Assembly (NCBI RefSeq): GCF_963921235.1 | Contig: NC_086108.1 | Span: 47,370,001 to 47,434,000 of the forward strand | From: Mobula hypostoma | Lineage: Eukaryota | DNA length: 64,000 nt | Direction of reading: 5' to 3' | Shown here: positions 3,602-57,221 of the stretch, in pieces | Layout: each line of letters opens with the position of its first letter | How positions within the stretch are numbered: position 1 is the stretch's first letter | The notes under the pieces: model-generated | Database searches by the model: none | The model's input: the letters and a program-made list of their open reading frames with translations, nothing else | Told to the model about the DNA's origin: nothing | Translations under genes and position numbers: made by a program

Positions 3602-5110
3602 GCAAGACACACAAAATGCTGGAGGAACACAGCAGGTCAGGGAGCATCTGTGGGAAAAAAGTACAATCGACATTTTGGGCCAAAACCCTTTGGCAGGAAT
3701 GGAGAGAAAAAAGCTGAGGAGTAGATTTAAAAAGTGGGGGATGGGGGTGGGGGGGAGGAGAGAGGAACACAAGGTGATAGGTGAAACAAAGGGGGAAGGG
3801 GGAAGTAAAGAGCTGTGAGGTCGATTGGTGAAAGTGATACAGGGCTGGAGAAGGGGGAGTCAGATAGGAGAGAACAGAAGGCCATGGAAGAAAGAAAAGG
3901 AACACCAGAGGGAGGAAATGAGCAGGCAAGGAGATAAGATGAGAGAGGGAAAAGGGGATGGGGAATGGTGAGGGGGGGCATTACCTTGAAGTTTGAGAAA
4001 TTGACGTTCATGCCATCAGGTTGGAGGCTACCCAGACAGAATATAAGGTGTTGTTCTTCCAACCTGAGTGTGGCCTCATCGCGACAGTAGAGGAGGCCAT
4101 GGATTGACACATCGGAATGGGATTGGGAAGTGGAATTTAAATGGGTGGCCACTGGGAGATCTCGCTTCTTCAGGTGGACAGAGTGTAGGTGCTCGACAAA
4201 GCAGTCTCCCAATCTACTTCGGGTCTCACCGGAATACAGGAGGCCACATTTGGGCACTGGACACAGTATATGACCCCAACAGACTCACAGGTGAAGTGTT
4301 GCCTCACCTGGAAAGACTGTTTGGGGCCCTGAATGGCAGCAAAGGAGGTGGTATAGGGGCAGGTGTAGTATTTGTTTCGCTTGCAAGGATAAGTGCCAGG
4401 AGGGAGATCAGTGGACAATGAAGTCACATAGGGAGCAATCCCATTGGAAAGTGGGGAGGGAAATGTGCTTGGTGGTAGGATCCCATTGGAGTTCCCACCG
4501 GAGAATTATGTACTGGATGTGGAGGCTGGTAGGTGAGGACAAGGAACCCTATCCCTTGTAGGAAGGCGGGAGGAAGGGGTGAGAACAGACGTGTGTGAAA
4601 TGGAAGGGACACAGTTGAGGGCAGCGTTGACGGTGGAGAAAGGGAAGCCCCTTTCTTTGAAAAAGGAGGCCATCACTTTCATACTAGAATGAAAAGCCTC
4701 ATCCTGAGAGCAGATGTGATGGAGACAGAAAACCTGAGAGAAGGGGAAGGTGTTTTTACCAGTAACAGGGTGTGAAGAGGAACAGCCCAGGTAGCTGTGA
4801 GAGTCAGTGGGTTTATAATAGACATCAGTTTATAAGGTATCTCCAGAGATAGGGACAGTGATATCGAGAAAGGCGAGTGAGGTGTCGGAGATGGACCAGG
4901 TAAATTTGAGGGCAGATTGGAAGTTGGAGGCAAAGTTGATGAAGTCGACAAGCTTGAATCAGTGCAGGAAGCAGCACCAATGCAGTCTTCAATGTAGTGT
5001 AGGAAAAGTGGGGGACGGACACCAGTGAAGGCTTGGAACATAGACTGTTCCACACAGCCGACAAAAAGGCAGGCATAGCTGGGACCCATGTGAGAGCCCA
5101 TGGTTACTTC
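3602..5110 (-). mobile_element. Penelope-like element (Neptune-type), 5'-truncated and frameshifted
   Basis: RT motifs MGSHMGPSYACLF and YIEDCIG (ORF 4679-5101); Cys-rich linker PCKRNKYYTCPY; GIY-YIG remnant VIYCVQC..LLYSGET..EHL (ORFs 4170-4427 and 3727-4257); pLTR with decayed hammerhead at 3663-3700. Confidence 0.92.
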
Positions 5111-5502
5111 TTTTGACTATTTTAACTTCCTTCATTTTACCTTGAACTTAGAAGGAATTTTGAAGAATCAAGGTATGGGTTTGTTCAGAGAGATCACAAC
5201 CAAAAAAAAATGTCTACCCCAGATCAGAAACTCAATAAGCGATGCTAAGGTTCGGGTGCAAAACCGAATGAGCATTGCACTGTCAGTGTATTTATATAGA
5301 ACAGTAGTGCCTCTCTCAAGTGAATCCAAAAGGTTCTGCGGCAAATAAGAAGAGAAATTATCCACCATTTTCCTCAATTCCCATTGTTGAAAAACATTGT
5401 CTGGCCATTATCACATTCCGGAGCTTACTCTGCATAAACTGTTGCAGCATTTCCTGAAATATAACACTGGCACCACTTCAGAACTATCATGACTGTTAAA
5501 AT

Positions 5503-5925
5503 GATTCAGAATCAGGTTTATTGTCACTGACATATGTGTGAAATTTGTTGTTTTGCAGCAGCAGTACAGTGCAAGATACAAAAATTACTAGAAGTTACAA
5601 AATAAATAAATATTGCAAAAGACAAATACGAGATAGTGTTCATTGGTTCATGGACAGTGCAGAAATCTGATGGGAGAGTGGAGGAAGCTGTTCCTAAAAT
5701 ATTGAGTGTGTGTCTTTAGGCTCCTGTACCTCTACCCCAATGGTAGTAAAGTGCAGAGGCCATGTCTTGGATGGTGAGCATCTTCAATCATGGCCACCAC
5801 CTTCTTGAAGCACCTTCGTGATATTTTCGACAGCAGGGAGGGTCATGCCTGCAATGGAGCTGTCTGAGTTTACAGTCCTCCGCAGTCTCTTGTGATCCTG
5901 TGCAAGGCAGCCTCCATATGGCGAC
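5503..5925 (-). mobile_element. Rex1/Babar LINE 3' fragment
   Basis: Tail attcagaatcaggtttattgtc followed by the rc of Rex1 3' coding sequence (aagctgttcctaaa..ctcctgtacctc..gtcttggatggtg). Confidence 0.7.
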
Positions 5926-7625: not shown

Positions 7626-8935
7626 TTCTGATGGATATATTAGGAGGAAAAATGGAGGTTAGCTATTGTCTTAAAATTACATTTCCTCCTTCAGAAGGAA
7701 TGAAAAAAATGTTTACAGTGAGGTTCCATTGTTGCAAGCATAATAGTCAAATAAATGTTCTGTAAGATCTCTGACCTCCTGCTCCATGCCTTTACTGGCT
7801 TCTACCAATGAGGGCTGTTGCTCAGCTCACATGATGCCCCTGTTGCACTAGCCTACAAACACTTGGGGCTTCAAATCGTCACGATCACTCTTTCAAAGCA
7901 GCACAGGCTCGAGTTCAGTAAAGGGGAACATAAGGGGTGAGGTACAAACTAGATCTAGCAGTAACATCATGTCAAAAATCGGAAATGTGACCACAAATCA
8001 CGTGCCACACTTGAGCAGTTTCACAGGAAATCCATAAGGAACACACTCAGCCTGATTCATGATGATAATTCATGAATGCATGACGAACAGATGCAGAGCC
8101 TCACTTCCACTGGCCTTCAGGAGATAACGTTGACTTTGCTGAAATTATAAGATCAGTTCACTTAAACAGCTATAGACATCTGCATGGTTCAGACACATGG
8201 AGTAGTCAAGGTTAGTTTAAAATCCCTGGGTGGAAATAGATAGGGAGAGTTCTGGAGGAAAAATTGAATCTTATGAGTCAAAGAAAATTAAATCTTTTGC
8301 TACTTCATAAAAGCAGTGGCAACATTGGAGCAATGGTGACATTTCAGGAAGCAAGTATTCTAGGCTGCAGTAAAGTTGAAGAAGAACTACTCGAACCTCA
8401 GGGAGCAAGACAGGCAAAACAAATCAATTGAGCTGCTCAGTTTTGGGCATGTTGAATGGGTTTTGAGCAGCTCTAACAATGAGTACCTCTTCTTCAATGA
8501 AGGGCAAACTTTCACAATCTCGCCACAGAGCCCAAAGTAAACTCCCTTATCACTTTTCAGCTTCCTTGTGCTTTCTTTTGAGGTGTGACACACCCCTTTG
8601 TTGTGCCCTCCCAATACCAGAGCTGAAGCAGGATTTCGGATGGGGACCAGAACCAAATTAATGCCTGTTCTCTGAACGATTGTCCACAAATCACTGGTAC
8701 GAGTCCTCCTTGAGTAACAACAAAGTTCTGTTCCTGAAAATTGTTCATAACCCAAACACTTCACAAGTCAAAAATGCAGCCTCCTGGCACAACACTTAAA
8801 TGAAAACCCTAAGCCAGGGAAGGGAAATGTCTAGTTCAAGCAGGGCATTGAACTCAACCATTCAGATATTTCCATAAACCGTGTTCCCATACGAGAGAAG
8901 GTGCCTGCAACCCCACAGTAGCCAGCAAATCGGTA

Positions 8936-9170
8936 GCACAAGAGATTCTGCAGAAGCTGGAAATCTTGAGCAACACACACACGCAATTCTGGGGGATCTC
9001 AGCGAGTCAAGCAGCTACTACGGAGGGGAATATACAGTTGCTGTTTTGGGCCTAGACCCTTCCTCACTCCAGTCCTGATGAATGTCTTGGCACAAACTGT
9101 CAATTGTTTATTCCCCTTCATGGATGCTGTTTGACTTGCTGAGGTTCCTTCAGCAGTTTATGTGTGTCGC
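8936..9170. mobile_element. Old fold-back PLE pLTR-only insertion (two inverted pLTR halves)
   Basis: Left arm cacaagagattctgcagaagctgg..agaccctt is the inverted pLTR with tail; right arm cagtcctgatgaa..gatgctgtttgacttgctgagg..tgtgtgtcgc is a direct pLTR with decayed hammerhead. Confidence 0.75.
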
Positions 9171-9379
9171 AGTGAATCCAAGTCACCCTTTTCCCAACTG
9201 CTCACTCCTATTTATAGGCTGTATGTAAAATTGGGTGCTTGTAGTCTGGGGAGGATCTATATTCTAATATAAAATGACCACTAGATGAGAATCTCACTGT
9301 CAAAGATTAGTCAACGTCCAATATCAACTTCAGTGCTAATATCCATGGAGGTTTTGAGTACCAAAACAACATCTGGAAT

Positions 9380-15690: not shown

Positions 15691-15699
15691 AGTGATCTT

Positions 15700-18226
15700 G
15701 ATGATGTTTCAGTCCCTTCCCACTTACAACTGCAACACTTCACATGCTCTCGATCTCCTCAACAACTTTCACTTCTCTGGCCCTGACTGCCTCATCTTCA
15801 CTATGGATGTCCGGTCCCTATACACTACTATCCACCATCAAGAAGGCTATAAAGCTCTCCGCTTCATTCTCGCCCACAGAACTGACCAGTTCCCCTCCAT
15901 CACCACACTCCTCCATCTTGTGGACGTGAAACAGTCCACGTTCCAAGCTTTCCCGGGTAATGCTCCCCAACTCTTTCTGCACGACATTGATGACTGCATC
16001 TGTGCTGCTTCATGCGCTCATGCTGTGCTCGTCAATTTCGCCAACTTTCCCTCCAACTTTCACCCTGCCCTTAAATTCACTTGGTCCATTTCTGACACAT
16101 CTCGCCCCTTTCTGGATCTCTCTGTCTTCATCTCTGGAAACATTTCGACTGATATCTTTTATAAAACTGCCAACTCCACAGCTGTCTTGACTAGACCACT
16201 TCCCACCTTATCTCCTATAGAAATCCTATTCCCTTTTCTCAGTTCCTTCTTCCCCACTGCATCTGTTCCCAGGATGAGTCTTTCTTTTCCAGAACATCAG
16301 AGATGGCCTCCTTCTTCAAAGAACGGGGTTTCCTCTTTTCGACCTTTGATACTGCCCTCACCCGCATCTCTTTCATTTCCCAGACGTCCGTCCTCACCCA
16401 TCATCCCGCCATCTTAACAGGGATAGAGTTCCTCTTGTCCTCACCTACCTCCCCCTTGAGCCTCTGCATCCAACACATCGTTCTCTACAATATCCATTAC
16501 TTCCAGCTGGATCCTACCACAAAACACATCTTAACCTCCCCCCAACTCTCCACTTTCCACAGGGAATATTCTGTCTATGATCCCCTGTCCACTTGTCCCT
16601 CCCCACTAATCTCTCCTCTTGCAAGTCGAAGTGCCACACCTGCCCATTCACCTCCTCCCTCACCACCACTCAGGGCTCCAAACAGTCCTTCCAGATGAGG
16701 AAACACTTCACCTGTGAATTTGTTGGTGCCGTCTACTGTAAGCGGAGCTCCCGATGCGGTCTCCTTTACATTGGTGAGAGCACTTTGTTGAGCACCTTCG
16801 CCCATTCACAAAAAGCAGAATTTCCCAGTGGCCAACCACTTTAATTCCAATCCCCATCCCCACATCAGTCCAAGGCCTCCTTTACTGCCATGATGAGACC
16901 ACTCTCATGTTGGAGGAACAACACCTCATGTTCCATCTGGTAGCCTCCAACCTGCTGGCACGAACACCGATTTCACTAAGTTCCAGTAATTTTTTGCCCT
17001 TCCCCTTCCCTCTTCTTCCATTGCCCATTCTGCCTCTGCTCTTAGCTCTCATCTACTCACCTGCTTACCACCTCTCTTGCAGCCTCTCCTCCTTCCCTTT
17101 CTCCCGTGGTCCACTCTCCTCTCCTATCAGATTCCTTCTTTCCCAATACTTTCTCTTTTCCACTATCACCTCCCAGCTTCTCGCATGATCCCCTTCCCCA
17201 CCCACCTAACTTCACCTATCACCTTCGAGCTGTACCCCTTCCCCTCACCTCCCCCACCTTCTTATTCTCGCTTCCCCACCCCCTCCTTCCTTTCCAGTCC
17301 TGATGAAAGGTATTGGCCTGCAATGTCAGCTGTTTATTTATTCTCATAGATGCTGCCTGAACTGTTGAGTTCCTCCATCATTGTCAAGTTCAAATTTAAT
17401 TATCATTTAACCATATATGAATACAGCCAAATAAAACAACGCTTCTCCAGGGCTAAAGTGCAAAACATAGTACCAACTATCCTACACAGCACAAGGTACA
17501 TGTACGATTACATTAAACATACAGTCGCACACAAAAAAATATATACTGTATATAGTCCAAGAGCCTGAGTGACATGCCCTGTAAGTTGAAGGTGCATCAG
17601 TATTATCAGCAAGACCAAGCAGTTCTCAGCAGTCTGTAGATGATCATATGCACACATGCATGCAGTCCACCTTGCCTTCCACTGAGCAAACATTGGCGAG
17701 CAGCACCAACCCAGCATGGACACCACGCGACACCACCTCTGGCATCTCTCCTCTTAGACTGCTGCAGCAGGCAAGCTCATAGCTTGAGGCTTAATCCTTG
17801 CTCCAACCAAGGCCACACAGCTCTGCCGCTGCCTGTCTCACCAATAAATAAGGGAAGCAGACTTGTGGTATTCTCCATTACCAATGCTCAACAGGGTCTT
17901 GCGCAATCACAAGAGAAACATCCAAGACAATCACTTGCTGTTAGACTGCACACCGCCTTCATGCACCAACTCCAATGCCTTCCTGCAGCAGGCAGTAACA
18001 CAGTCTACCTCGAGCCCAGCTACTCCAGCTCCTCCACCAGAGGTAGACCTGCAGTACTTGAAGACCTTAATGTCCAGCATGCCTTGCGACCGTTAAAAAA
18101 AAAGACACTTAAAAAAGACATAAACACATTTTGTTGACCCGAGAAGCTGTTGCATCCGAACATGCTGCCATCTTACATTTTGTGTGTGTCGCTCTGGATT
18201 TCCAGCATCTGCAGAATCTTGTGTTT
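15700..18226 (+). mobile_element. Penelope-like element, degenerate; pLTR split by the 17383-18174 insertion
   Basis: ORF 15686-16417 IFTMDVRSLYT..HDIDDCI..PFLDL; ORF 16593-16844 CHTCPF..VYCKR..LYIGE; decayed hammerhead 17295-17332; pLTR resumes at 18176 (cattttgtgtgtgtcgctctggatttccagcatctgcag). Confidence 0.9.
17383..18174 (-). mobile_element. Non-autonomous Rex1-like retroelement
   Basis: Minus strand starts aagatggcagcatg (AAGATGGC-type 5' end) and ends in a Rex-like tail (rc of gtcaagttcaaatttaattatcatt); no RT ORF; cleanly interrupts the pLTR. Confidence 0.5.
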
Positions 18227-18944: not shown

Positions 18945-19470
18945 AAGCAACACACACAAAATGCTGGAGGAGCTCAGCAGGCCAGGCAGCATCTAGGAAA
19001 AGAGTCAACTGTTGATGTCTTAAGCTGAGTCCCTTCATCAGCATTGGAAAAAAAAGATGATAAGTCAGGTAAGAAGGTGAGGGGAGGGGAGGAATAAGCA
19101 CAAGGTGGTAGGTGATTGGTGAAAACAGGAGAGGTGGAGGGGGTGAAGTAAAAAGCTGGGAAGTTGATTGGTAAAAGAGATAAAGGGCTGGAGAAGGGGG
19201 AATCTGATAGGAGAGAGTAGAATGTCATAGAAGACAGAGAAGAGGGAGCAGCACCAGAGGGAAGTGATGAGCTGGTAAGGAGATAAGGTGAGAGAGGGAA
19301 ACAGGAATGGGGAATGATGAAGTGTGTGTGTGTGTGGGGGGGGGGGGAGTACAATTACCAGAAGTTTGAGAAATCAATGCCATCAGGTTGGAGGCTCCCC
19401 AGATGAAATATAAGATGTTGCTCCTCCAACCTGAGTATGGCCTCATTGCAACAGTAGAAGGCCATGGATT
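18945..19470 (-). mobile_element. PLE 3' fragment (endonuclease end, pyrimidine-rich UTR, pLTR)
   Basis: rc encodes RLEEQHLIFHLGSLQP-like end; pLTR gcaacacacacaaaatgctggagg; decayed hammerhead 19010-19046. Confidence 0.88.
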
Positions 19471-22039
19471 GAATTTAGGAAGCCAAGTACAACTGGGACC
19501 CTGATCTCCACAGACAGAGCAGTCAAACCACACATGAAATAAAACAGAAAACAATGAAAATGCTTAATAGATCATGCAGCATCAATGGAGAGAAATTGCA
19601 TTTCTATGTTTTGCTTTAAACTTCAGATTCCCAGCGCCTGCAGTTGTAAAAAATTTTGAAACCACACAAGATTATGTTTGATGTCTATGGTAGGGACAGA
19701 TTTCATTGAGGGGAAAGAATACAGTCTGACTTTAGCCCTGTAACCAGCAAGGGAAAACAGGGTTAGTAAAACTGAATGATTTTTCAAGAAAGCAAGAACT
19801 GCGTTTTCAGTCCAGTGAGGTTAAAAATTACTCTGGAGGTGAACTTTGAGTGTAGCACCATTGCTGACCTCATTTCAAGGAACTTTACTTTGGAGTGAAA
19901 ATGATGAGACAATGAAAAATTCCACCATAAAATCAGGACTCAAATTTCCCAATGAGAATGAACATTCCTAGAAAAATAGGCACAAAATTTTTGCACTCTG
20001 GGTTAAGCCGTAATCCCAATGCACCGCAAATGCTTTTTCAGAGTCGGCAAAAAGAATTTCAAGGCAATTATATTTAAGAGTGATTTCATTCAAGCTGTTG
20101 CCTATAGTGGCTCGAGGTCAGCTTTCAAAGAAAATTAATAATCAAGCCCTCAAGAGATGGTTTTGTAATTGGGACCTGCATTAGGGAAAATAATTACTTA
20201 GTGTTGGTGGTACAGGATTAATTTGGCCAGCCTTCATGTAGTTCCCCAAGGACCATGGTCCACAGCAACAAAATAGTCCTTAGGTCAGCATTTTGCGTTT
20301 GGAATCCTGCAGACAGATGCTGTGGGTAATGAATATTCCATACCTCTGCAGAAATAAGTCTGGCAAATCCATTTTCATAATCTTGAAGCTCCACCTTCAT
20401 TCTCATGTGTAATGTTTTTATAATTTTGAAGGCAAGGCAAAAGGGTTGAGGTAATGTTTAATAAACCATTTGTCAGTACAGGAAGCTGAAGTTTTGTGAT
20501 CATTTCACTGGATGCTGCCTGTGCAGGAAAATGCCCAGGAAATCCTTGTTTCTGCAAAACTCATTACTGAGAGCCTTTGTCTGTCTGCCTTCCCTTCACT
20601 CTCTCATTGCCCTAATCTGAGTTCCAGAGTTCATTCAATCATTAGCAATTCCAGTGGTGGGTTGTTGTGGGGTGTGCTGTTGAAGAGGGGAATCGAGATT
20701 TCTCCATATGCAATTCAATTGCTTGCCAACATAAACTGTCAGACATCTGATCATTCATCATCCCTACCTTTCCCATGTTCACTTCGCCAATTCACCTCTT
20801 GTCCATTCCACTCATTTGTATTTTCCCCATCTTCATTGTTCCACACCAACATATACACAGATGCACACATGCATCTCCACAGACAAATAAATAGATCATT
20901 TTTAATGTACTTGTCTTAAATAATTAGTGGTGAATTCATAGCAGAGAAAATACAGCATTTCCCCTGAAACTTGCAGCCAAATACTTGAATGTTGAGACCA
21001 GAGTCCTGTCAGCACAGGCAAGTTGCTGATAAGATTTCTTTGGGTGTCGGGGAGGATCGAAGATCAGCAAGAGGACAATTATCAAATTATCACTGTATAC
21101 TCTTCTCTGATGATGGAAGCAGCTGTGGACAAGAAGATTCAACAAGAAGCACAAAACTTGCATATACAAATGTTTGTATATATATCTATCACAGTTAAGG
21201 TTGAATACCACTTCCCAAAAGTGGTTACTAAACAATTTTTGCCCCTGAGCCATGTGTAGATGGAGGGGAGGTCACCTTGCTCAAAACTGAACATAAATTT
21301 CACATTAAGGTAATTGTTTTGCATTTTATTTTGTGGACTGCCCAAAACAACATCTAATGACACTATCAATCTGGCTCACGTAGGTTAAATGCGAAACTAT
21401 AAACCAAGACTGAACTGATAGTGCTAGCAGCTGACAATTGCCTGGAGAAGCACCCAGTCCAGCTAAAAGCTGGCACTTGAACAAATATTTTTCAGTCAGG
21501 AAATTATAAACTTCCTAACTGCTCCAAGGGAAGAACTGCTCCAATACTATCAATAGCACCAGATAAACCCGAGTTGTCAATATTTTAAACTTTATGGTGA
21601 AAAGCACTATGCTCCTAATTTTACATGGTTAAAAAGGTTTTGAGATCTTACGTAGTCATCTAGCAGGTTGTTTTTAACATTCTGGAAGTCAGGAGCACCT
21701 GTGCACATATGGAAGTAAACCTAAAGGTGAATTTACAAAACCAAGAAAGGTGGAATTACCTACACTGTCCAAACTGTTTACATTTACAATCACCACTCTC
21801 AGGTGATTTGTGTTCTCCTTTTGAATCTGGGTGACGAATACAGTATGAGTCCTTGTTGTACATCAATTTCCAGAATTAATGTCACAAACTTACAGAATAT
21901 GCAGATACAGTGTCTCCTCCCTAATAACATCAAGTCTGAGCATCACCCAGTATCAAAGTATGAACTGAAGCAATATGAACGATACTACTAAAACAGACAA
22001 TTAGTATTGCATGGTGACAAAAACTACGTGTCTCATTAC

Positions 22040-23050
22040 ACAATTAACTCATTTGCTATCCCCAACTCCTTCACTCCAGCAAAGGTGCACCATTTGTCCC
22101 TCACCTCCTCTCTCGCCACCATCCGAGGACTTTAACAGCTGTTTCAGGAGAGGTACAGATTTACAAGCACCTCCTCCAACCTGGTCTTTGGTGCTGTCAA
22201 TGTGGCCTCCATCAGCAAAACAAAGCGTAGACTAGACAACTGTTTTCAGAGCACCTGCATTCTCTCTGCAAAAGCCATCTGATTGCACGTCCTTTCAATT
22301 CCACTTTACATTCCCACATTGGCCCGTCCATCCCTTGGACTTCTTCACTGCCATGGTGATGCGAAATGCAAACTTAATAAACAACTTATGTTCTGCTTGT
22401 GTACCCTACAGCCAATGTTATAGATGTCAAATTTTCTAATTTCTGGTAATTGACCAGTTCACCCAGGTTCACTCTCCCTACGTTCATCTTTTCTATCCCT
22501 CCACCTCCTCCCCCATTAGCAAGACTCATTAGCTTTCCCATCTTGGTATCGTCTGCCCATCATTCACATGACTCTCCACTTGGGTTTCTTCTCCCTTAGT
22601 TCACTGTTTCTATCTCTTCCTCTCCAAAGTGGAAAACATAGAATAGAATAAGACATAGGATAGAAAACATCATCTTCTATTTACCCATCATCCCTCCCTC
22701 CTAGCCTCTATTTCCAACACACACCTCCTCTTCGTACATGGTTACATTTGTAGAACGTCTCCTCTCCCTTATCAATTTCCATCCATCACTGACCAACCTC
22801 TGCTTAACACCTGCCCTACCCTTCCCACATCTGCTTATCACTCTCCCAGCCCAATCCTGTTCCACTTATCAGCTAACAGTCTCTGTGTCACCAGACCTCA
22901 TTTCTATTTATTGACCATCTGCCCTCTACACTCGCTATCCTGGATGCAAGGTGTCAACCTGAAACATCAACCATCGCTTTGCCTCCACTGAGGCTACCTG
23001 ACCCACTAAGTTCTTCCAGCAGTCTATTTTATGATCCATTTCCCAGTTTT
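22040..23050 (+). mobile_element. Old PLE 3' fragment
   Basis: Decayed GIY-YIG region, pyrimidine-rich UTR and pLTR remnant ctggatgcaagggtgtcaacctgaaacatc. Confidence 0.65.
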
Positions 23051-29000: not shown

Positions 29001-29007
29001 CCAGATG

Positions 29008-37304: not shown

Positions 37305-37326
37305 GTAGAGGGAAGGGGCCCTCTAC

Positions 37327-37362
37327 AGTCCTGACGAAGGGTCCCAGCCCGAAACGTCGACT
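37327..37362 (+). ncRNA. Minimal type-I hammerhead ribozyme, intact
   Basis: agtc CTGACGA a gggt-ccca-gccc GAAAC GTC gact; predicted cleavage after 37358. Confidence 0.85.
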
Positions 37363-39944
37363 CATCGTTTCCACGGATGCTGCCTGACCTGCTGAGTTCC
37401 TCCAGCGTGTTGGGAGTGTTGCTTTGACCCCAGCATCTGCAGAGTATTTTGTGTTTATGATTGAGGAGTCATCTGGCCAATGGATCAATGAGGCCATTAG
37501 AAGGAGAAAAAAAGACAAACGTACAGGTAAAGCTGTAAAAAAAAAAGCATCAGAGCTGAGAATGAAGCTTGAGATCAAAATGCTGGAAGTGCCCCGAAGA
37601 TCTGGCAGTGTCTGTGTAGAAGAAAATACTGTTACCATCACAGATGATGAACTTAGAGCAGAGCTAGCTCTGACCCTAGCCAAAACCTTAAATGGTTGAA
37701 CTTGATAGAGACTCCCAAGGGCTGCAATGTGCTCACACACTAGATGAGGGGCTGCTCTTTAATCTTAAGCTGGATCTCATTGTAACATTGCAGGAGGTCA
37801 CGGATATACTGGCCACAGAGAACATGGGATGGAGGATTAAAATGATAGCCACTGGAAAGGTCCGGGTCAGAATACAGGTGCTCTGCAAAGTGGTCACCCA
37901 CTCTCACTTTGATCAGTTCAATGTAGAGGAGACCACATTGTGAACACTGACACAATTTAGTATGATGGACAGGCGGGATTGCAAGTGAGTGAACAACTGA
38001 TCTCAGAAGGACAATTCAGATGCCCAGGTGGCCGTGAGGGACAAAGTAGAAGATCAGGTGTTGCATTCCCACCTTGAAAAGGGAAATGGCTGGTGGAGGT
38101 AGGACCAGGGAAAATGAAAACAGAAAATGCTGAAAAACACTCAGCAGTATCTGTGGAAATAAGATTGTGTTAAATCCCTTTTTTTTTGTTTCTTGGCATA
38201 TTTTTAATTGTTATGAAAACCAAAATAGTGTTTTTTGAGACTAATGCAATTTTATTTTTGCTCCAGTCGTGGGAGTTGGGAACTGTGTGAGTGTCCAAAT
38301 CCCACATGAGCACTTGTGGCCTTTTTGACTAAAGCAAGAATTAATTCAAAGTTCTGAGCAATGATGCAATTAATTACTATTTGTTAGAGCATGAGTCTTG
38401 GCCAATTTTATAATTAAACTCAGCAGTGATGGAATACCACAGGAATAAATAGTGTCCTCACAGGATCTGCTCAGATCTAGAGATGCCAGTGTTATTTATG
38501 ACTGCCACTAGGATCCAATTCTTTAAAGATTCTGCGGTCAGAAAAGGGATTGTGGGTCAAAGGCTGAGGATGATAGGTTGGAAGGTGACCTTCGGACCAT
38601 GGGAGCGACTTGGTATCCTGGAGGGAACGCTCATGGTCTGTCACTCCAGGTGTAGGCTCACGCAGTGGAACTTACGTGGTGGTTCAGCTTTGTGTGGGAT
38701 GAGCAGTGCAGACGTAGGAGATCTGACCCAACTGAATGATTGGTATTTATGCTCCACAGTAACAGCCCATTGTCCACTTCATCTATTCTACCAGTAAAAT
38801 CCATTGGTCCCTCTCACCTAACCAACTTCTCTTTCAGTGCATCTATTCCCCTCAATAATGCAAGAGGGAAATTTGGAACTTGCAGTAGAATCTGGGAGGT
38901 GATAGGTAATGACAACAAAGGGGAACAGATGAGTAAATCCAATAGGAAGAGAAGGTGAGGCATGAAAACAAATAAGAGTGGTGGGAACAGGAGAGGGAAA
39001 GGGTCCACTGGATGGAGTGTGTTGGTGATGGGCGTATAGAGTAGATGGAGGAGGAGAAAGGAACAGCATGATGAGGGTCCAGAGATTGGGGCGGGGGGGC
39101 TGTGTAGAACAGGAGGAAAGGGAAAAGGGTCGGAGAGGGAACCGGTTTTATTCAATGGTCATGCCGTCTGGCCAGTGGGTTACATTGTGTTTTATCTGTA
39201 ATACACTATGTGGTATTACAATTGTTGGACAAACAGCAGCTGCTGCCACACGTTGGACAACAAAAATACATTTGTCTCATGTAGTTAGGTGAAGACTATT
39301 GTGCTGTGGACTGAAGAAGTGCGTTACCACACCATGCCTTCCTGAGCACTGAGGTTGTAACTACTAGTGTTACTGCCATACAGGAAAAATTGTACCAGCC
39401 AGTCTCTCACATCTGACAGCAACTGCAAAGGAGAGTATATCAGTGCAGCCCAGGATGACGCTAATTAGTCTGCACAATCAGAAAAGTGCATTTTAGCAAG
39501 ATAGAAACTACTCTAAAGATAGAAAAATAAAAAGAATTCCAAATAACAAGACAAAAAGATATTTCAGTGCATGTGACTATTCACTTTGAAGTTAATGGGA
39601 TAAAAGTTAAAGTGTTTTCAACTTTGATCAAAGGAACTGTATGGTGGGTGGAAATGTAGCAGCCACCCCTATTTAACAGGAGTAACTACAGATGATTTTC
39701 TTTACATCAAAGACTTCAGAAATTATAACAATTAAAATTTCCCTCATTATGTTCTATATAGTGGGTAAAATCATACTAACTCAGGCCAACAACTTGGTTG
39801 GTGGAAGAGCCTGTTTCTGTGCTGTAGAACTCTATGACTCCAGCTACTGAATTGTTTGTAATAGTAATGTTCAGTCAATAGTCTTGGGAGAAGCTAAGAA
39901 GGATAATCTATACTAGAGTAATAGAGTAATAGAGAGAGAGAGAG

Positions 39945-40250: not shown

Positions 40251-43200
40251 ATCCCAGTTTGTATCTTTATACAAATTGTAGGCTATTTTGTTTAAATGTA
40301 AGCCTAATGCTGGCAATTTTGATTGAGAAGTAATTTGGCCCACGTCTGCTCACCAACTATGGTTTCAATAGAGGCTTACTTTCTCTCTAACTTTAAATCT
40401 GTGTAACCTCATTCTTTGAACAAAACTGAACAATGGTCTGATAAAGACACTACACTGCTTTAACACAATAACCTTAGGTTTGTACTTTTCAGAGTTGGCT
40501 CCATTACATTCCTGTTGACTGGTTTACATCTATGATTGCTCAACATACTTAGAGATCACTTGATTGAAGTGAGACACATACAGTAACCTAGGATGGAAAT
40601 ATTTACACAAGTTTCTAGCTATGCTGCATGAATTCAATGAACACTGAGAAAATCATGCAAAATGTAGTTTCATCAAATTATGTATTCTGACAATGATCCT
40701 GAATGAGTATGGGTTAACATGGTGTGGTGCAGCAGAACCAACACTTTGGTGATAAAGTGCAAAAGGGTTCCTTTTCAAAACTTGTGAGTGTCTAACATTA
40801 ATGACGCTAACATCAACTTACTACAGATATTCACTGAGATAAACTTACATGCAAAGATTATCAACTGCATTACAAACACTCTCCTAACAATCGAGTCCCA
40901 CTGTTTACATTTTACACGCATATGCAAATAGGGTTCTGATCACGGGTTTGATGTCATCTTTCCAAATTTGAATTGCACTTGACAATAGTCCACAACGTGT
41001 GTGAAATAACCAATCTTCCCAGGAGTAAGTTTCATTGAATTTTTACTTACCTTATTGGAGAGTTTCCATACTCAACATTAACCTGGTCCATCAGTGGCTG
41101 CCACTCCCTCCCTCCACACCTCTCCTATCTCCCCTCTCCTCTGGGATCTCCTGACTGTTCTAATTGCCATTAAAGGCTAGCCAACCAATTCTTTTTGTGA
41201 GGCGCAAGCAATTTGTTCGGCAATGGTATGGCATGAAATATGTACAGCATTTTTAATTGGATTCTTCAGGTTTCTTGCTTTGTGGCTGCCTGTAAGCAAA
41301 CAAATCTCAAGGTGTAGAATTTATACATACTTTGATAATAAATGTATTTTAATGTTAATGTTAATTTGGTAGTCCTACAAGCAAATAGAGAAGTGAGCAT
41401 AAACAGGATTTTCAATGTATTACGGGTGTTTTTAAGAAGAATATTTCCATTTTTCTCTAGCTGTTGGTCTAGTGCCAGGCAGGGTATTCCAAAGAACTTA
41501 TTCAGATAGTTGTCAATCCTGGAGAATAATAACCGTTTACTCTTTTTTTTAAAAAAAGACAGATTGCATATAACTTTAGACATCTCCATACACAGTTGTG
41601 TTGCACAATTGTGCTTAAATAACTAATAGTCACAACTCAGCACTCTTATCGGGGAAGTTCATTTCCCTTATTATAAGCAAGCTTTTCATTTTTCCCCTAA
41701 GTCATATCGTATCCAGTTAAAGGAAGATGGATTAAACTAACTACGTTTTGAATAGAAAAGCACATCATTTCCTCCACAAACTCTCATATACAGTCACAAG
41801 ATTGGTGACAATCAGGTATAAACAGATGATGTAATTTTGTTTCATGAAGTATGGCACTAGCCAGGTCTTGCCACTTTCAGCGTTACGATCACAGGATCAC
41901 TTTATTAACCTACCAGAAGTAGGTTTCATCTTTCACACAGAGTGATGATGCTGTTACCCGCCGTGGCAGTCACTCTGAGAGAATGAAAGAATCTTAAGAT
42001 GGTGCAGATGTATTGCTTAGCAATTACTATTCTTCTCACCATAAAAGAAATACCAGTTTACAGAAATTGTTTGTTCAGATGTGACCTCATTCCCTTGGCA
42101 CTCTCAGAGAAAGCTGATAATCTTGAACCCTTAATTGACCTGTAGTTTGCATGGTTCACTTTGGATATCAGATCATTTCCATGTTGGTTTGGAGCCACAG
42201 CCAAATTAGAGAAAACAAAATTCTGATGAGAAATCAAGAATGCCATCCAAATGAATACAGAATTTCAAAACCTCATCTACAAATAGTCTGTATGACTTTG
42301 GAAACCATCATACTAATTTAGACATTGGAGAGCTGAAGAGTATAGTAGCTCGAGTTCATTGCATGAAATGTCAACAATGATCTATTAAACATGTAGAACC
42401 ATGCCTAAGCAAGTGTAGGGCGCTCACTGAATGTGCACCATGTTTACCAAATTGGAAGTCACCAAAACAAATGTGAAATAGCAGAATTGGGACATTCTTG
42501 CTCCAAGAAACCCGACTTGCATGTTTCTCACATTCCCACATGGTAAATGCCACTTGCTAGGTGAGCAGCAATGATGACATTTTCTCACTGATCCTTGGGA
42601 AATGCATCAATACTATTAAAGTCAACCATCCATGGCATTCTCATGCTTAAATGAGAGGCCAGCTGGGTCATCTCCAAAAAAAGAGGGTAGAAGGGGAAGG
42701 GATTATTAATAAAGCAGTTGTGGGCAGAGGGGCAATAGAGGGAGGAGGGCACAACAGTCCATGGGTCTCTCTTGGGCACAGTGGTCACAAGCTTCTGTGA
42801 TCAATAGTAATTTTGGGGTCACAGATAAAGCCATTGAGTCCATGCCAAGCCATTAATCTGCTCCCTCCCGTCGACCTGCATTGTCCTCCTATCCATGTAA
42901 CTATCCAAATTTTTCTTAAATATTGAAATCGACTCCACATCCACCACCTCCACTGGTAGCTTGTTCCACACTCTCACTGAGTGAAGAAGTTCCTTCTCAG
43001 GTTTCCCTTAAATATTTCACCTTTCACCCTTAACTCATAACCTCTAGTTCTAGTTTCACCCAACCTCAATGGAAAAAAGCCTGCTTGTATTTATCCTATT
43101 CATAAACCTCATCATTTTGTATACCTCGAACAAATTTCCCCTCAATCTTCTATGTTCTATACAAACCTAACCTAACCAATTCAAACAACAGGAATTCTGC

Positions 43201-43280
43201 AGATGCTGGAAATTCAAGCAACATACATCAAAGTTGCTGGTGAACGCAGCAGGCCAAGCAGCATCTATAGGAAGAGGCAC

Positions 43281-43316
43281 AGTCGACGTTTCAGGCCGAG
43301 ACCCTTCGTCAGGACT
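43281..43316 (-). ncRNA. Minimal type-I hammerhead ribozyme, intact
   Basis: rc: agtc CTGACGA a gggt-ctcg-gcct GAAAC GTC gact. Confidence 0.85.
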
Positions 43317-43611
43317 AACTGAAGGAAGAGTGAGTAAGGGATTTGAAAGCTGGAGGGGGAGGGGGAGATGCAAAATGATAGGAGAAGACAGGAGGGGGAG
43401 GGATAGAGCCGAGAGCTGGACAGGTGATAGGCAAAAGGGGATACGAGAGGATCATGGGACAGGAGGTCTGGGAAGAAAGACAAGGGGGGGGGTGACCCAG
43501 AGGATGGGCAAGAGGTATATTCAGAGGGACAGAGGGAGAAAAAGGAGAGTGAGAGAAAGAATGTGTGCATAAAAATGAGTAACAGATGGGGTACGAGGGG
43601 GAGGCGGGGCC

Positions 43612-44347
43612 TTAGTGGAAGTTAGAGAAGTCGATGTTCATGCCATCAGGTTGGAGGCTACCCAGACGGAATATAAGGTGTTGTTCCTCCAACCTGAGTG
43701 TGGCTTCATCTTTACAGTAGAGGAGGCCGTGGATAGACATGTCAGAATGGGAATGGGATGTGGAATTAAAATGTGTGGCCACTGGGAGATCCTGCTTTCT
43801 CTGGCGGACAGAGCGTAGATGTTCAGCAAAGCGGTCTCCCAGTCTGCGTCGGGTCTCACCAATATATAAAAGGCCACATCGGGAGCACCGGACGCAGTAT
43901 ATCACCCCAGTCGACTCACAGGTGAAGTGATGCCTCACCTGGAAGGACTGTTTGGGGCCCTGAATGGTGGTAAGGGAGGAAGTGTAAGGGCATGTGTAGC
44001 ACTTGTTCCGCTTACACGGATAAGTGCCAGGAGGGAGATCAGTGGGGAGGGATGGGGGGGACGAATGGACAAGGGAGTTGTGTAGGGAGCGATCCCTGCA
44101 GAATGCAGAGAGAGGCGGGGAGGGAAAGATGTGCTTAGTGGTGGGATCCCGTTGGAGGTGGCGGAAGTTACGGAGAATAATATGTTGGACCCGGAGGCTG
44201 GTGGGGTGGTAGGTGAGGACCAGGGGAACCCTATTCCTAGTGGGGTGGTGGGAGGATGGAGTGAGAGCAGATGTACGTGAAATGGGGGAGATGCGTTTAA
44301 GAGCAGAGTTGATAGTGGAGGAAGGGAAGCCCCTTTCTTTAAAAAAT
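43612..44347 (-). pseudogene. PLE ORF C-terminal part: RT thumb end, Cys-rich linker and complete GIY-YIG endonuclease (5'-truncated, frame open)
   Basis: FFKERGFP..RVPLVLTYHP..PCKRNKCYTCPY..GVIYCVRCSRCGLLYIGETRRRLGDRFAEHL..ATHF..RLEEQHLI..GMN. Confidence 0.93.
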
Positions 44348-45756
44348 GATTCAACCAATTCAACCTTTCCCTATAACTCAGGTCTTCAAGTCCTGGCAAG
44401 ATCCTTGTAAATTTTTTCTGCATTCTTTCAATCTTATTTACATCATTCCTGTAGGTAGATGGCTAAAATTGCATACAATACTTCAAATTAGGCCTTGCAA
44501 AAGTCTTATACTATTTCAACATAACATCCCAACTCTTGTACTCAATACATTGATTTACGAAAGCCAGTGTGCCAAAAACATTCTTTATGACCATATCTAC
44601 CTATGACACCACTTTCAAGGAATTATGGACGTGTATTCCCAGATTCCTCTGTTACACCACATTCCTCAGTGCCTTACCATTTACCATGTAAGATCTACCC
44701 TGGCTGGTCCTCCTGAAGTGCAACACCTCACACTTGGCTGCATTAAGTTCCATCTGCCAGTTTTTCAGCCCATTTTTTTCAGCTGATCTAGATCCTGCTG
44801 CAAGCTTTGATAGTCTTCCTTGCTGCACACTACACCTTGAATCTTGGTATCATCCGCAAATTTGCTGAACCAGTTTAAAGATGACAAACAACAGTGGACC
44901 CAGCACTGATCCCTGCAGCACACCACTAGTCACAGGCTTCCAGTCAGAGGGATAACCATCTACAACTACTCTCTGGCTTCTTCCATGATGCCAATATCCA
45001 ATCAAATACACTACCTAATATTGAATGCCAAGCGACTGAACCTTCTGGACCAAGCTCCCTTGCAGGACATTTTCAAAGATCTTGCTAAAATCCACATAGA
45101 CAATGTCGTCTTGCCTTCATCAATTTTCCTGGTAACTTGTTCAAAAAAACTCTATAGGACATGACTTATCATACACAAAGCCATTCTGACAATCCCTAAT
45201 CAGTCCCTATCTATCAAAATACTTATATATCCGGTCCCTCAGAATACCTTCCAACAACTGATGTCAGGCTAACCAGCTGAAAATTTCCTGGCTTATTCAT
45301 AGAGGCTTTCTTAAACAACGAAACAACACTAGTTACACTTGATCTTCTGGCACCTCACCTGTGGATAACGATGATATAAATGTCTCTTCTGGAGCCCCTG
45401 CAATTTCTGCACTAGTCTCCCACAGGGTCCAAGGGAACAATTTGTCAGGACCTGGAGATTTATCCACCCTAATTTACATCAAGATAGCAAATATCTCCTC
45501 CTGTGTAAATGAGACAGGGTCCATAGCCTTGCTATTGCATTGCCTCACATCTATAAAATCTGTGTCCATCTCCCAAGAAAATACAGATGGAAAAAATCCA
45601 TTTAAGATGTCCCCTATCTGTTTTGGCTCCACACATGGATTACCATTCTGATCTTCAAGAGGACCAATTTTGTCCCTTACAATGCTTTTGCTCTTAACAT
45701 ATCTGTAGGATTCTCCTTCACTCTGTCTGATTAAGCAGTCTCATGTCTTGGTTTAG

Positions 45757-54039: not shown

Positions 54040-54620
54040 TAAACTGTGAGCATTAATACCCATGCAGCAGAGCCTGGTCTCCAGTCAATTTGGGCTCCCT
54101 TGCCAATTTATCAAGACCTTGCTCTAGGTGGCAGTCAGTACGCAACTGCTACTCTATGTTAAAAGAACCACCCACAGGCATTTGCCATCCCATAGCTTGA
54201 AACTGAGATCTGGAATGTCAGAACCCTCATAAAGAAACTCAACAGTAATAAATCTGAACACCACTCTACAATCCAACTTGGGAAGTCAAACTCACTGACA
54301 TTAATATTGCTGTACCTGATGAAACAAGATAGGAATGAGATGGCCAGTTGAAAGAATAAGGCAGTGGGCAAACCTTCTTCTGCAGAGCCAGACAGGAAGA
54401 AGAATGTCATCTTCACAGAATAAACGTTGCCATCAAAAATAATGAGGTCCAGTATCTCAGTGACTCGTCCAAGTCCAAGGAGGACTTCTTCTTCAATCTT
54501 GAGAGCACACTGATCCAAATCCCGAAGACAGACAGATTGTTCCACCTGTATGACTTCAGTGCCTGCATGCAAAGGGAGTCATCACACTGGCAAGGTGTGA
54601 TTGACATGGAAAGAGTGGGG
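54040..54620 (+). mobile_element. RTE-clade LINE 5' UTR and APE endonuclease N-terminus remnant
   Basis: tggaatgtcagaaccctc (WNVRTL), gacattaatattgctg (DINIA), gccatcaaaaat (AIKN), gacttcagtgcc (DF.A). Confidence 0.6.
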
Positions 54621-55756
54621 AGGGGTATGTCCAAAGGATTCTTCTCTTTAGAAAATTCATCAATAAGACAAACATAAGATATCATGGCAACACCTCCACC
54701 TCCTTCCATGTATTGGCACCTGTTGGTTTCAGTCACAAAGGGATTGGTCTGTTGAGATCTGCCATAGATCCAGTGGGTCAAATGGGCCTATCTGAATTGT
54801 AATTACTGCTCTTCCCTAATTACTCGGTGGATAAATCAGAGCCCAATGTGAATCTATGTCGGACAGATGAAAATCCAAAATCTGTTTTCCTAATCTGTCC
54901 TTTTGGCCATTGCTGGTCTCTCAAAATTTAACCCCAGTTTCTTGAAGCGTCATGGTCTCCTCATTACATAATCCCTTCTTCAACATAACTGATCAGACTG
55001 CAGAGTTACAGCACAGAATTTCAGAGTGCAGAAGTAAATTCATTGTACCCACTCAAACGCTTTTTAAAAGCTACCAATTAGTCACAGAGTTCCTGCTTCT
55101 CCTTTGTTCAGCAAAGTCATTATTTTACACCTATACTCCAATATCTTCTTAAGCCACCCGATATAAGACCACAAGACAAAGGAGCAGAGTTAGGCCATTC
55201 GGCCCATTGAGCATACTTCATCATTCCACCATGGCTGATTTATTATCCCATTCATCCTCATTCTCCCGTCTTCTTTCCATAACCTTTGATGCCCTGACTA
55301 ATCAAGAACCGATCAAACTCTGCTTTAAATATACTCAGTAACATGGCATCCACAGCTCCCTGTGGCAATGAATTTCACAGATTCACTACCCTCTGGCAAA
55401 AGAATTCTTCCTCATCTCTGTTCCAGTCTGAGGCTCTGACCTCTGATCTTAGACTGAGCCACTATTGGAAACATCCTCCCGACATCTGCTCTATCCGGAC
55501 CTATTAATATTCAATAGGTTTCAATGGGATCCCCCCTCATTCTTCTGAATTCCAGCAGGTACAAGCCTGAAATCAACAAACACGCCTCATTTGTTAACCC
55601 TTTCATTCCCAGAATCACTCTCAAGAATTTCCTCTGGACCCTCTCCTATGCCACCACATCTTTTCTAAGATAAAGGGCCCAAAACCGCTCACAATACTCC
55701 AAGTGCAGACTGACCTTATAAAGCCTCAGCATCACATCCTTGCTCTTATATTCTAG

Positions 55757-57221
55757 GCAACACTCACAGTACGCTGGAGGAACTCAGCAGGTTGGGCAGC
55801 ATCAGTGGAGACGATGAGTCGACGTTTCGGGCCGGAACCCTTCGACAGGACTGAAGAATGAAGGGGGGGAAGGATCTGAAGAATGCTTGTAGGTTTGACT
55901 GAAAGACCAGTAATTTGAAAGACAAAGGGGTGGGGGAGGGGAAGCATCGACGTCATAGGCAGGAAAACAATGGGTAGTAGAAGGAGGCGGAACCATGAGG
56001 GCGGTTAGAGGCAGCTGGGGGAGGGGGCAGAGTGAAATAGGGATAGAGGAAGGGAGGGAGAGGGAATTACCTGAAGTTGGAGAATTCTATGTTCATACCA
56101 AGGGGCTGGAGACTACCTAGACGGTATATGAGGTGTTGCTCCTCCAATCTGAGTTTAGCCTCATCATGGCAGTAGAGGAGGCTATGTATGGACATATCTG
56201 AATGGGAATGGGAAGCAGAGTTAAAGTGGGTGGCTACCGGGAGATCCTGTCTGTTGTGGCGGACGGAGTGGAGGTGCTTGACGAAGCGGTCCCCCAATCT
56301 ACGTCGGGTTTCACCGATGTAGAGGAGGCCGCACCGGGAGCACCGGATGCAATAGATGACCCCAACAGACTCACAAGTGAAGTGTTGCCTCACCTGGAAG
56401 GGCTGTTTGGGGTCCTGAATGGTGGCAAGAGAGGAGGTGTAGGGACTGGCGTAGCACTTACGCTTACAGGGATAAGTGCTGGGTGGGAGATCCGTGGGGA
56501 TGGACGTGCGGATAAGGGAGTTGCGGAGGGACCGATCTCTGCGGAAAGCGGAGAGGGGTGGAGAGGGAAAGATGTGCTTTGTGGTGGGGTCCTGTTGAAT
56601 GTGGCGGAAGTTGTGGAGGATAATGTGCTGGATCCGGAGGCTGGTGGGGTGGTAGGTGAGGACAAGGGGAACTCTGTCCCTGTTGTGGTGGCGGGAGGAT
56701 GGGGTGAGGGCCGAAGTGCGGGAAATGGAGGAGATGCGGGTGAGGGCATCATTGATGACGGTAGAAGGGAAACCACGATCCTTAAAGAAAGAGGACATTT
56801 GAGATGTCCTGGAACGGAAAACCTCATCCTCGGAGCAGATGTGGCGGAGACGGAGGAACTAGGAATAGGGAATGGCATTTTTGCATGTGGCGGGGTGGGA
56901 AAAGGTATAGTCGAGGTAGTTATGAGAGTCAGTGGGCTTGTAGAAGATGTCAGTGGACAGTCTGTCTCCAGAGATGGAGACCGAGACATCGAGAAAGGGG
57001 AGAGAAGTGTCCAAGATAGACCAAGTGAATTTGAGTGCTGGGTGGAAGTTTGAAGTAAAGTCGATGGAATTGACAAGCTCAGCATGGGTGCAGGAAGCAG
57101 CACCAATGTAGTCGTCAATGTACCAAAGGAAAAGTTGGGGAGCAGTACCAGAATAGGTTTGGAGCACAGACTGTTCCACATAACCAACGAAGAGACAGGC
57201 GTAGCTGGGTCCCATGCGAGT
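55757..57221 (-). mobile_element. Young 5'-truncated PLE inserted in CR1
   Basis: 13-bp TSD tcttatattctag at 55744-55756 and 57222-57234; hammerhead 55817-55852 with CTGTCGA core substitution. Confidence 0.96.
56067..57215 (-). pseudogene. PLE RT (C-terminal half) plus GIY-YIG ORF with a single in-frame TAG
   Basis: ORFs 56859-57215 (MGPSYACLF..WYIDDYIG..FYKPTD) and 56067-56798 (VIYCIRCSRCGLLYIGET) are in the same frame, split by TAG at 56859-56861 where the family has Q. Confidence 0.92.

What the first reader, a model, noticed from the sequence alone, without database searches (positions are those of the whole stretch)
3602..57221. About a dozen minimal, probably dimer-dependent hammerhead ribozymes spread by a Neptune-type PLE family
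Seen: the motif [stem I]-CTGANGA-A-GGGT-N4-GCC(C/T)-GAAAC-GTH-[stem I'] is intact at 33636-33675, 37327-37362 and 43281-43316; singly mutated at 37269-37304 and 55817-55852; and decayed near 3663, 9070, 17295, 19010, 22935, 29071 and 36014. The stem-II loop varies (TCCG, CTCG, CCCA, CCTG) while stem and core persist across subfamilies whose flanking UTRs differ, suggesting selection on structure. Stem III is only the loopless palindrome ACGU. Established: such minimal PLE hammerheads are thought to cleave as dimers. Inference: at roughly one copy per 5 kb, the genome could hold a very large number of latent self-cleaving sites within host introns.
Basis: partly seen in the sequence, partly recalled or inferred. 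Interest (0 to 1): 0.7.

Follow-up and report, generated by a model that had tools for sequence, protein, structure and literature searches.

The report
Penelope retrotransposon minimal hammerhead relics
The repeated 38-base motif is real, but it is the already described minimal self-cutting RNA motif that Penelope-like jumping genes carry near their ends, seen here in shortened, mostly decayed copies in a cartilaginous fish, so it is ordinary in kind.

Summary
Confirmed: all 12 sites are present as described (3 sequence-intact, 2 with one change, 7 decayed), plus 4 more relics; shuffles give none. Eight lie on the coding strand 219-527 nt after a GIY-YIG endonuclease frame, in 5'-truncated Penelope-like (PLE) copies with a Neptune-type CX4CX2C linker, 10-14 bp target duplications and an optional ~35-nt tail. 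The motif fits the published PLE minimal hammerhead consensus (PMC4209133). Between young subfamilies it is 87% identical against 57% (chance level) for the upstream UTR, so the active element was under selection to keep it. After insertion it decays like its flank. The 'latent cleavage sites in host introns' idea is unsupported: no host exon was found, intact copies have no close partner, one sits in a 101-bp hairpin, and all are predicted to fold inactive. One lead remains: a palindromic insertion starts exactly at the cleavage site (28566), as does one contig joint in a public run, a possible fossil of in-vivo cleavage (post hoc, n=2). This scan reported the motif before on other DNA of this genome and of sharks, and noted that lead both for and against.

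The parts
33637..33674 (-). Sequence-intact minimal hammerhead motif (subfamily A), predicted cleavage between 33642 and 33641
33543..34176 (-). 5'-truncated PLE copy: end of GIY-YIG frame, ~265-nt pyrimidine-rich UTR, hammerhead, conserved 3' block, ~35-nt tail; inserted in a hAT remnant
37212..37457 (.). Head-to-head palindromic insertion of two pLTR ends (101-bp arms, 94% complementary), 14-bp target duplication; tail on one arm only
37326..37363 (+). Sequence-intact motif in the right arm, sequestered in the hairpin if transcribed
37268..37305 (-). Motif in the left arm, one stem-I change at position 1.1
43280..43317 (-). Sequence-intact motif (subfamily B)
43185..44352 (-). 5'-truncated PLE copy: RT thumb end, CX4CX2C linker, GIY-YIG with CCHH (open frame 43615-44370), UTR, hammerhead, tail; 11-bp target duplication
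55816..55853 (-). Motif with one core change (A6 to U)
55757..57221 (-). Longest PLE copy: part of RT core, thumb, linker, GIY-YIG (one in-frame stop), UTR, hammerhead, no tail; 13-bp target duplication
3600..5116 (-). Decayed PLE copy with RT/EN remnants and decayed motif at 3664-3701
8925..9181 (.). Old head-to-head insertion with two decayed motifs (9043-9067 minus, cut in the core; 9070-9106 plus)
15692..17384 (+). Decayed PLE copy with RT/EN remnants and decayed motif at 17295-17332
18945..19472 (-). Short decayed copy, motif at 19009-19046
21896..23030 (+). Very old copy (EN remnant 27% to P0001), decayed motif at 22936-22973 with A-U and U-A pairs in stem II
28514..28662 (.). Head-to-head insertion without hammerhead core, 13-bp target duplication; the plus arm starts at 28566, which is position 1.1, the first base after the cleavage site
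29071..29108 (-). Decayed motif in a short copy
30217..30254 (-).
35899..36469 (-). Decayed copy with EN end, motif at 36014-36051, tail
37052..37090 (-).

Best explanation
The motifs are the pseudo-LTR (pLTR) hammerheads of an endonuclease-bearing Penelope-like retrotransposon family of the Neptune type that amplified in several waves in a cartilaginous fish, probably a ray. Shown: each motif lies on the element's sense strand between a pyrimidine-rich UTR and a conserved 3' block, in 5'-truncated or two-armed insertions with 10-14 bp target duplications and one of two fixed 3' ends. Inferred from published PLE work: the element's protein nicks both DNA strands and starts reverse transcription at two sites about 60 and 95 nt downstream of the motif, so nearly every insertion, however short, carries the motif. 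That explains the density without any benefit to the host. In the active tandem element the motif probably cleaves slowly, as a two-copy ribozyme and/or with help from the element's own protein, which is why it is conserved between subfamilies. Dispersed solo copies have no partner, misfold and decay neutrally, so nearly all are inert passengers.
For: GIY-YIG Pfam hits on two frames upstream of motifs. tblastn of PLE proteins covers RT-linker-EN at 9 places, 8 of them 219-527 nt before a motif. Best protein relatives are from a stingray (76%) and three sharks (55-64%). Linker C119 and C124 and EN C162, C165, H184, H200 are invariant in 12 of 12 aligned sequences. Target duplications of 10-14 bp at 5 of 16 spans tested. 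Of 18 3' ends printed, 8 stop at a short site and 8 at a site ~35 nt further; each of the 3 head-to-head insertions has one of each, as for the two RT start sites in PMC11167929. The motif fits the published consensus CUGANGAH-G..C-GAAAN-palindrome-NUH. Young subfamily A vs B: motif 33 of 38 identical, upstream UTR 56.5% (shuffled mean 54%, max 58.6%), spacer 53%, downstream block 68%. In four public runs 3,938-26,673 contigs lie on one copy; 94 and 228 contigs part from it right at the 3' end of stem I and 47 at its 5' end. Old copies: core 15 of 77 vs flank 25 of 217 changed, Fisher p 0.085. Predicted folds pair the core with the cleavage site or with upstream pyrimidines.
Against: No cleavage was measured. 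No full-length or tandem element is in the window, so the dimer context is inferred. Covariation is not significant in 12 copies (3 pairs with two-sided changes, 67 of 500 shuffles as high). The downstream block is also conserved (68%), so part of the motif's conservation could reflect protein binding and not catalysis. ViennaRNA ignores tertiary contacts, Mg2+ and proteins. Neptune placement rests on motifs, not on an RT tree with named references.
Confidence: 0.88

Rival explanations
1. Dispersed intact copies act as latent ribozymes on host pre-mRNA, pairing through the 4-base palindrome over kilobases or in trans, and so shape host transcripts or are purged from the sense strand of introns.
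For: The family is very abundant (about 17% of this window by hand-drawn intervals). Three copies are intact, two on one strand 9.6 kb apart. A preprint reports tandem PLE-derived retrozymes depleted from Xenopus introns (10.64898/2026.07.22.740005, passages). PLEs are common in whale-shark introns (10.1101/443036, passages).
Against: No host exon found, so sense orientation is unknown. The strand skew is not significant (9 of 12, p 0.15). Predicted probability of the 2.1-1.1 pair is 0.03 or less once 25 nt of upstream flank is included; a crude double-hammerhead estimate is 3-6 kcal/mol worse than two locked monomers. Published min-HHR monomers do not cleave and dimers cleave weakly. The anole PLE ribozyme needs the element's protein, and no RNA-seq reads ended at its site.
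Confidence: 0.05
2. The motif is kept by the element for a non-catalytic role (a protein-binding or RT-pausing fold, or part of the pLTR promoter) and does not cleave in vivo at all.
For: Cleavage is dispensable for insertion in vitro in the anole element. Naiads spread without canonical hammerheads (PMC8557442, passages). The young copies fold best into a rod that pairs core bases with the cleavage site. Several inversion junctions fall in or near the motif.
Against: The conserved letters are exactly the catalytic ones across phyla. Core mutants and rescue behave as for a hammerhead in the anole element. One insertion here starts at position 1.1.
Confidence: 0.12
3. Chance resemblance to a hammerhead inside an ordinary SINE/LINE tail.
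For: Rfam returns no hammerhead family at E up to 5.
Against: Shuffles give no match. The Rfam miss is expected if its models need a stem III (recalled, not tested). Position and strand relative to a GIY-YIG frame are those published for PLEs.
Confidence: 0.01

Closest known systems
Minimal hammerheads (min-HHR) in the pLTRs of metazoan PLEs (Cervera and De la Pena 2014, PMC4209133; parts 1-2 of 4 of the text and part 2 of 3 of supplement file 2 read)
   Same: Type I; CUGANGA core; extra base between 9 and 10.1; G10.1-C11.1; 4-5 bp helix I; palindromic 15.2-16.2 with no loop III; sense strand of the pLTR; thousands of solo copies per genome; opposite-strand pairs 100-700 bp apart; reported in fish Neptune elements.
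   Different: Helix II is short (4 bp with a U-G pair). No cartilaginous fish appears in the supplement part read, and 'shark', 'Callorhinchus', 'Leucoraja' gave 0 hits in the 2 files searched (file 1 not searched). Density here (16 sites in 64 kb) is far above the 4,000-9,000 per genome given for coelacanth and Xenopus.
Small PLE hammerhead variants that cleave as dimers (Lunse, Weinberg, Breaker 2016/17; not held, seen only as cited in review PMC6765202, passages)
   Same: Very short palindromic stem III, PLE association, dimer-dependent and slow cleavage.
   Different: Could not compare sequences or rates; paper not read.
Poseidon element of the green anole, PAc (Frangieh et al. 2024, PMC11167929; parts 1-2 of 4 read)
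   Same: pLTR hammerhead, two RT start sites defining an optional 30-40 bp tail, cleavage of both DNA strands, AT-rich targets (target duplications here 57-80% AT).
   Different: Poseidon lacks the Cys linker present here. PAc starts RT in an AC-rich loop, whereas the 3' ends here are UG-rich. Its ORF begins inside the ribozyme; the ORF start of this family is not in the window.
Neptune clade PLEs (as defined in PMC8557442 and PMC3846280, passages)
   Same: C-terminal GIY-YIG with CCHH, CX2-5CXXC linker, pLTR, tail at one end, inverted 5'-truncated arm.
   Different: Neptune vs Nematis not separated by a tree here; no full-length copy in the window.
Animal non-LTR retrozymes (10.64898/2026.07.22.740005; part 1 of 5 and passages read)
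   Same: PLE-derived type-I hammerhead repeats; reported in 1 chondrichthyan genome.
   Different: Retrozymes are head-to-tail tandem units; none of the copies here is in a direct tandem.

Membership tests
PLE minimal hammerhead (min-HHR) | Type-I core CUGANGA ... GAAA ... UH | tested here: met
   4 exact cores
PLE minimal hammerhead (min-HHR) | Extra nucleotide between 9 and 10.1; G10.1-C11.1 pair | tested here: met
   9.1 is A in 12 of 12; 10.1-11.1 is G-C 4, G-U 4, A-U 2, unpaired 2
PLE minimal hammerhead (min-HHR) | Palindromic 15.2-16.2, no stable helix III | tested here: met
   ACGU in the 5 young copies
PLE minimal hammerhead (min-HHR) | Helices I and II supported by covariation | tested here: inconclusive
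   79.6% of cells paired vs 11-43% when slid, but no measure beats the shuffles
PLE minimal hammerhead (min-HHR) | Located in the pLTR on the element's sense strand | tested here: met
   219-527 nt after the EN frame in 8 copies
PLE minimal hammerhead (min-HHR) | Cleaves as a dimer, not as a monomer | not testable with these tools
   needs an assay; only contigs were available for laying
EN+ Penelope-like element | RT followed by C-terminal GIY-YIG with CCHH in one frame | tested here: met
   (5'-truncated; one stop in the longest copy)
EN+ Penelope-like element | Optional 30-40 bp tail and inverted 5'-truncated arm | tested here: met
   8 short and 8 long 3' ends of 18; 3 head-to-head insertions
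EN+ Penelope-like element | Tandem arrangement with two direct pLTRs | tested here: inconclusive
   no full-length or tandem copy in the window; no genome held
Neptune clade | CX2-5CXXC Zn-finger linker between RT and EN (absent in Poseidon) | tested here: met
   C119-X4-C124-X2-C127 in window:43615-44370; third Cys lost in the 56070 copy
Neptune clade | RT phylogeny grouping with named Neptune and not Nematis elements | not tested
   no named reference sequences available; the preprint finds only Neptune and Poseidon in vertebrates
Non-LTR retrozyme | At least two head-to-tail units each with a complete hammerhead | tested here: not met
   nearest same-strand intact pair is 9.6 kb apart
Rfam hammerhead families | Covariance-model match | tested here: not met
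   8 matches at E up to 5, none a hammerhead

The most novel reading that the evidence does not exclude
The genome keeps a fossil record of in-vivo hammerhead cleavage: part of the insertions were copied from the 3' cleavage product, so their 5' junctions pile up at position 1.1. The 28514-28662 insertion (plus arm starts at 28566, position 1.1) and the opposite-strand contig joint at 33641 in run X1 would be two examples, and two-armed insertions with one cleaved and one uncleaved arm would record two RNAs held by one protein dimer. With so many copies this could settle by counting whether PLE hammerheads cut during retrotransposition.
Probability: 0.15. Interest if true: 0.55.

Novelty: new member of a known kind. 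Interest (0 to 1): 0.2.

Why it matters
As it stands it extends a known motif to a very high-copy family of cartilaginous fish and is a fair annotation point: Rfam does not flag these motifs. It would matter more if the copy number were used as a natural experiment: 5' junction positions and intronic strand bias over many thousands of copies could test whether PLE hammerheads cleave in vivo, which PMC8557442 calls unclear and PMC11167929 could not show.

Tried and rejected
No whole genome is held for this window, so genome-wide counts, intron bias and junction statistics were not possible. Protein and motif scans of metagenome, viral and prokaryote collections found 0 loci. The run search listed no RNA holder on record; all 4 runs laid were contigs, so RNA ends, strand and level could not be read. 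Rfam: 8 matches, all miRNA or lncRNA models on palindromes or weak, taken as chance. Host gene: Pfam on 12, 132 and 90 translated frames (the last two sets picked from 418 frames of 55 codons or more, leaving out those in recognised repeats) gave only transposon-type domains; short exons would be missed. Covariation test not significant. The 53420 hit was rejected as chance. An ATG inside the CUGAUGA core as ORF start was considered; by eye the frames stop within about 20 codons, and young copies have ACG there. The Lunse paper is not held. Literature searches: hammerhead + Penelope-like + dimer (24 papers); Penelope-like + Neptune + shark (0); clade names; (no paper listed on elasmobranch PLE hammerheads, by titles and term counts); Penelope-like + hammerhead + cleavage site + truncated + twin priming (8 listed, none on PLE 5' junctions by title and abstract start). 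Subscription papers are not covered.
Full report
1. Observation. The motif is in the window as described. A 28-nt version gives 4, 5, 10, 11 and 13 hits at 0, 2, 4, 5 and 6 mismatches, against means of 0, 0, 0, 0.07 and 0.47 in 30 dinucleotide shuffles. Three copies have every core and stem position (33637-33674 minus, 37326-37363 plus, 43280-43317 minus). Two have one damaging change: 37268-37305 has A at 1.1, and 55816-55853 has U at 6. An HMM built from 13 of the copies gives 27 hits at E up to 1, 22 of them below 0.01, several being pLTR ends with no hammerhead (the 13 match by construction). Rfam reports no hammerhead.

2. The carrier. Frames upstream of the motifs encode a GIY-YIG endonuclease. 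Their best relatives are proteins from a stingray (76%) and three sharks (55-64%), then unnamed metagenomic proteins at 39-45% (10 hits among longer proteins), so the host is a cartilaginous fish, probably a ray (inference). tblastn with four of these proteins finds RT, linker or EN remnants at nine places. In eight copies the motif lies on the coding strand 219-527 nt after the EN frame, behind a UTR that is 77-82% C+T in the three measured. The linker carries C-X4-C-X2-C and the EN carries CCHH; C119, C124, C162, C165, H184 and H200 are invariant in 12 of 12 aligned sequences. PMC8557442 (passages) gives this linker for Neptune and Nematis and its absence for Poseidon, so 'Neptune-type' is met by motif; no RT tree with named references was possible. 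All copies are 5'-truncated and none is a direct tandem. The family covers about 17% of the window by hand-drawn intervals.

3. Insertion anatomy. Five of 16 spans tested have target duplications of 10-14 bp, 57-80% AT. Of 18 3' ends printed, 8 stop at a short site, 8 run about 35 nt further, and 2 fit neither. Three insertions are head-to-head pairs of pLTR ends (8925-9181, 28514-28662, 37212-37457), each with one short and one long end; two have a clear duplication. This matches the optional tail and inverted arm of PLEs and the two internal RT start sites and two-strand cleavage shown for the anole element (PMC11167929). Since copying starts just downstream of the motif, even very short insertions carry it. 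That accounts for the density (inference).

4. Is the motif under selection? Between young copies of two subfamilies (33645 vs 43288) the 38-nt motif is 33 of 38 identical, the 200 nt upstream 56.5% (shuffled mean 54%, maximum 58.6%), the spacer after stem I 53%, and the downstream block 68%. Four public runs from four organisms lay 3,938, 13,571, 26,673 and 18,667 contigs on one copy. Of the 40 best-supported differences shown (101 more hidden), 2 fall in the motif, both in loop II; 20 fall in the upstream UTR, 14 in the EN frame and 4 downstream. By my arithmetic about 2 would be expected in the 34 stem and core positions, so this is weak support, and the 80% laying threshold favours conserved parts. 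Among 24 loose-end rows shown of 2,173, 94 and 228 contigs leave the copy at 33637, the last base of stem I, and 47 at 33673, its start. So the active lineage kept the motif. Against: pair counts on the 12 aligned copies do not beat shuffles (79.6% paired, 107 of 500 shuffles as high; 3 pairs with two-sided change, 67 of 500). After insertion there is no protection: 7 old copies have 15 of 77 core positions changed against 25 of 217 in the downstream block (Fisher p 0.085).

5. Could the dispersed copies cut? Stem III is a 4-base palindrome and cannot close in one molecule. Folded alone, the three intact motifs prefer a rod in which core bases 5-8 pair with 15.2-17 (-12.9, -12.5, -11.0 kcal/mol against -10.5, -8.5, -7.0 for the open form). 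With 25 nt of upstream flank the pyrimidine tract captures the purines of the core and stem II, and the probability of the 2.1-1.1 pair drops to 0.03 or less. A crude double-hammerhead sum is 3-6 kcal/mol worse than two locked monomers (tertiary contacts and proteins ignored). The intact copy at 37326 lies in a 101-bp hairpin of about -215 kcal/mol on either strand. The other two are 9.6 kb apart on one strand. Published min-HHR monomers do not cleave and dimers cleave weakly (PMC4209133); the anole ribozyme needs the element's protein, is dispensable for insertion in vitro, and left no RNA-seq ends. No host exon was found: Pfam on 12, 132 and 90 frames gave only transposon-type domains, and the strand skew (9 of 12 minus) is not significant (p 0.15).

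6. Comparison with what is known. The motif fits the consensus printed in the supplement of PMC4209133, which reports such motifs in fish Xena, Poseidon and Neptune elements and by thousands in coelacanth and Xenopus. Dimer cleavage is also credited to Lunse et al. in a review; that paper is not held. A 2026 preprint finds PLE-derived tandem retrozymes in one chondrichthyan; the copies here are not tandem and fail that definition. I found no paper on this elasmobranch family in the searches, which do not cover subscription journals; supplement file 1 of PMC4209133 and the preprint's supplements could not be seen and may list it. This is a new member of a known kind. Earlier notes of this scan report the same motif elsewhere in this genome and in sharks; their genome-wide copy numbers were not checked here.

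7. The open lead. In the 28514-28662 insertion the plus arm starts at 28566, exactly position 1.1, with one base shared with the other arm and no core left. In run X1 one contig (depth 125) has an opposite-strand joint at 33641, position 1.1 of that copy; it is 1 of 7 such joints among 15 shown of 106, and its direction is ambiguous. Both are what run-off copying of a cleaved RNA would leave. I noticed this after the fact, the other two head-to-head junctions in the window are not at the site, and a 4-base inverted match straddles the 28566 junction, so microhomology is a live alternative. I noted this idea before seeing earlier notes; one records a like single case (e1-7790562) and one says the turning points follow short inverted matches (e1-7809460). 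Neither was checked here beyond this window. I put the probability at 0.15.

8. Verdict. Real, correctly recognised, already described in kind; dispersed copies are most likely inert. Interest 0.2.

Noticed in passing
window:18176-18262: Tail-to-tail palindrome made only of two PLE tail ends (about 32-bp arms); the opposite geometry to the three head-to-head insertions. It draws chance Rfam miRNA hits.
   Followed up: partly
window:31672-31891: PLE fragment with a 10-bp target duplication that holds the EN end and part of the UTR but no hammerhead or pLTR end, so copying began upstream of the usual sites.
   Followed up: partly
window:37576-37946: Older EN remnant (43% to P0001) joined almost directly to a decayed pLTR end; the UTR and hammerhead seem deleted.
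   Followed up: no
window:33020-35400: hAT transposase remnant (Pfam Dimer_Tnp_hAT) interrupted by the 33543-34176 PLE copy.
   Followed up: partly
window:24300-25414: Tc1/Sleeping Beauty-like transposase remnant between inverted arms 24139-24250 and 25498-25609.
   Followed up: no
window:11055-12500: Long purine-rich tandem array built of 7-nt units.
   Followed up: no
window:44353-48700 and elsewhere: Many LINE remnants with RT and endonuclease domains, CR1-like by recall; the 43185 and 55757 PLE copies sit inside such remnants.
   Followed up: no
P0003 C-terminus: The zebra-shark protein model reads through the UTR and ends in a stretch (LMKGLRPKRQL) that looks like a translation of the same hammerhead motif, hinting that the motif is shared with sharks and that such gene models are PLE artefacts; P0001 is likewise a host-named model made of PLE sequence.
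   Followed up: no
window:43195-43225 and other tails: The tail holds a pyrimidine run ending in CAG that resembles a 3' splice site; Penelope pLTR introns are known, not tested here.
   Followed up: no
window:52500-54900: Broken frames that look like a decayed retroelement; no Pfam hit.
   Followed up: partly
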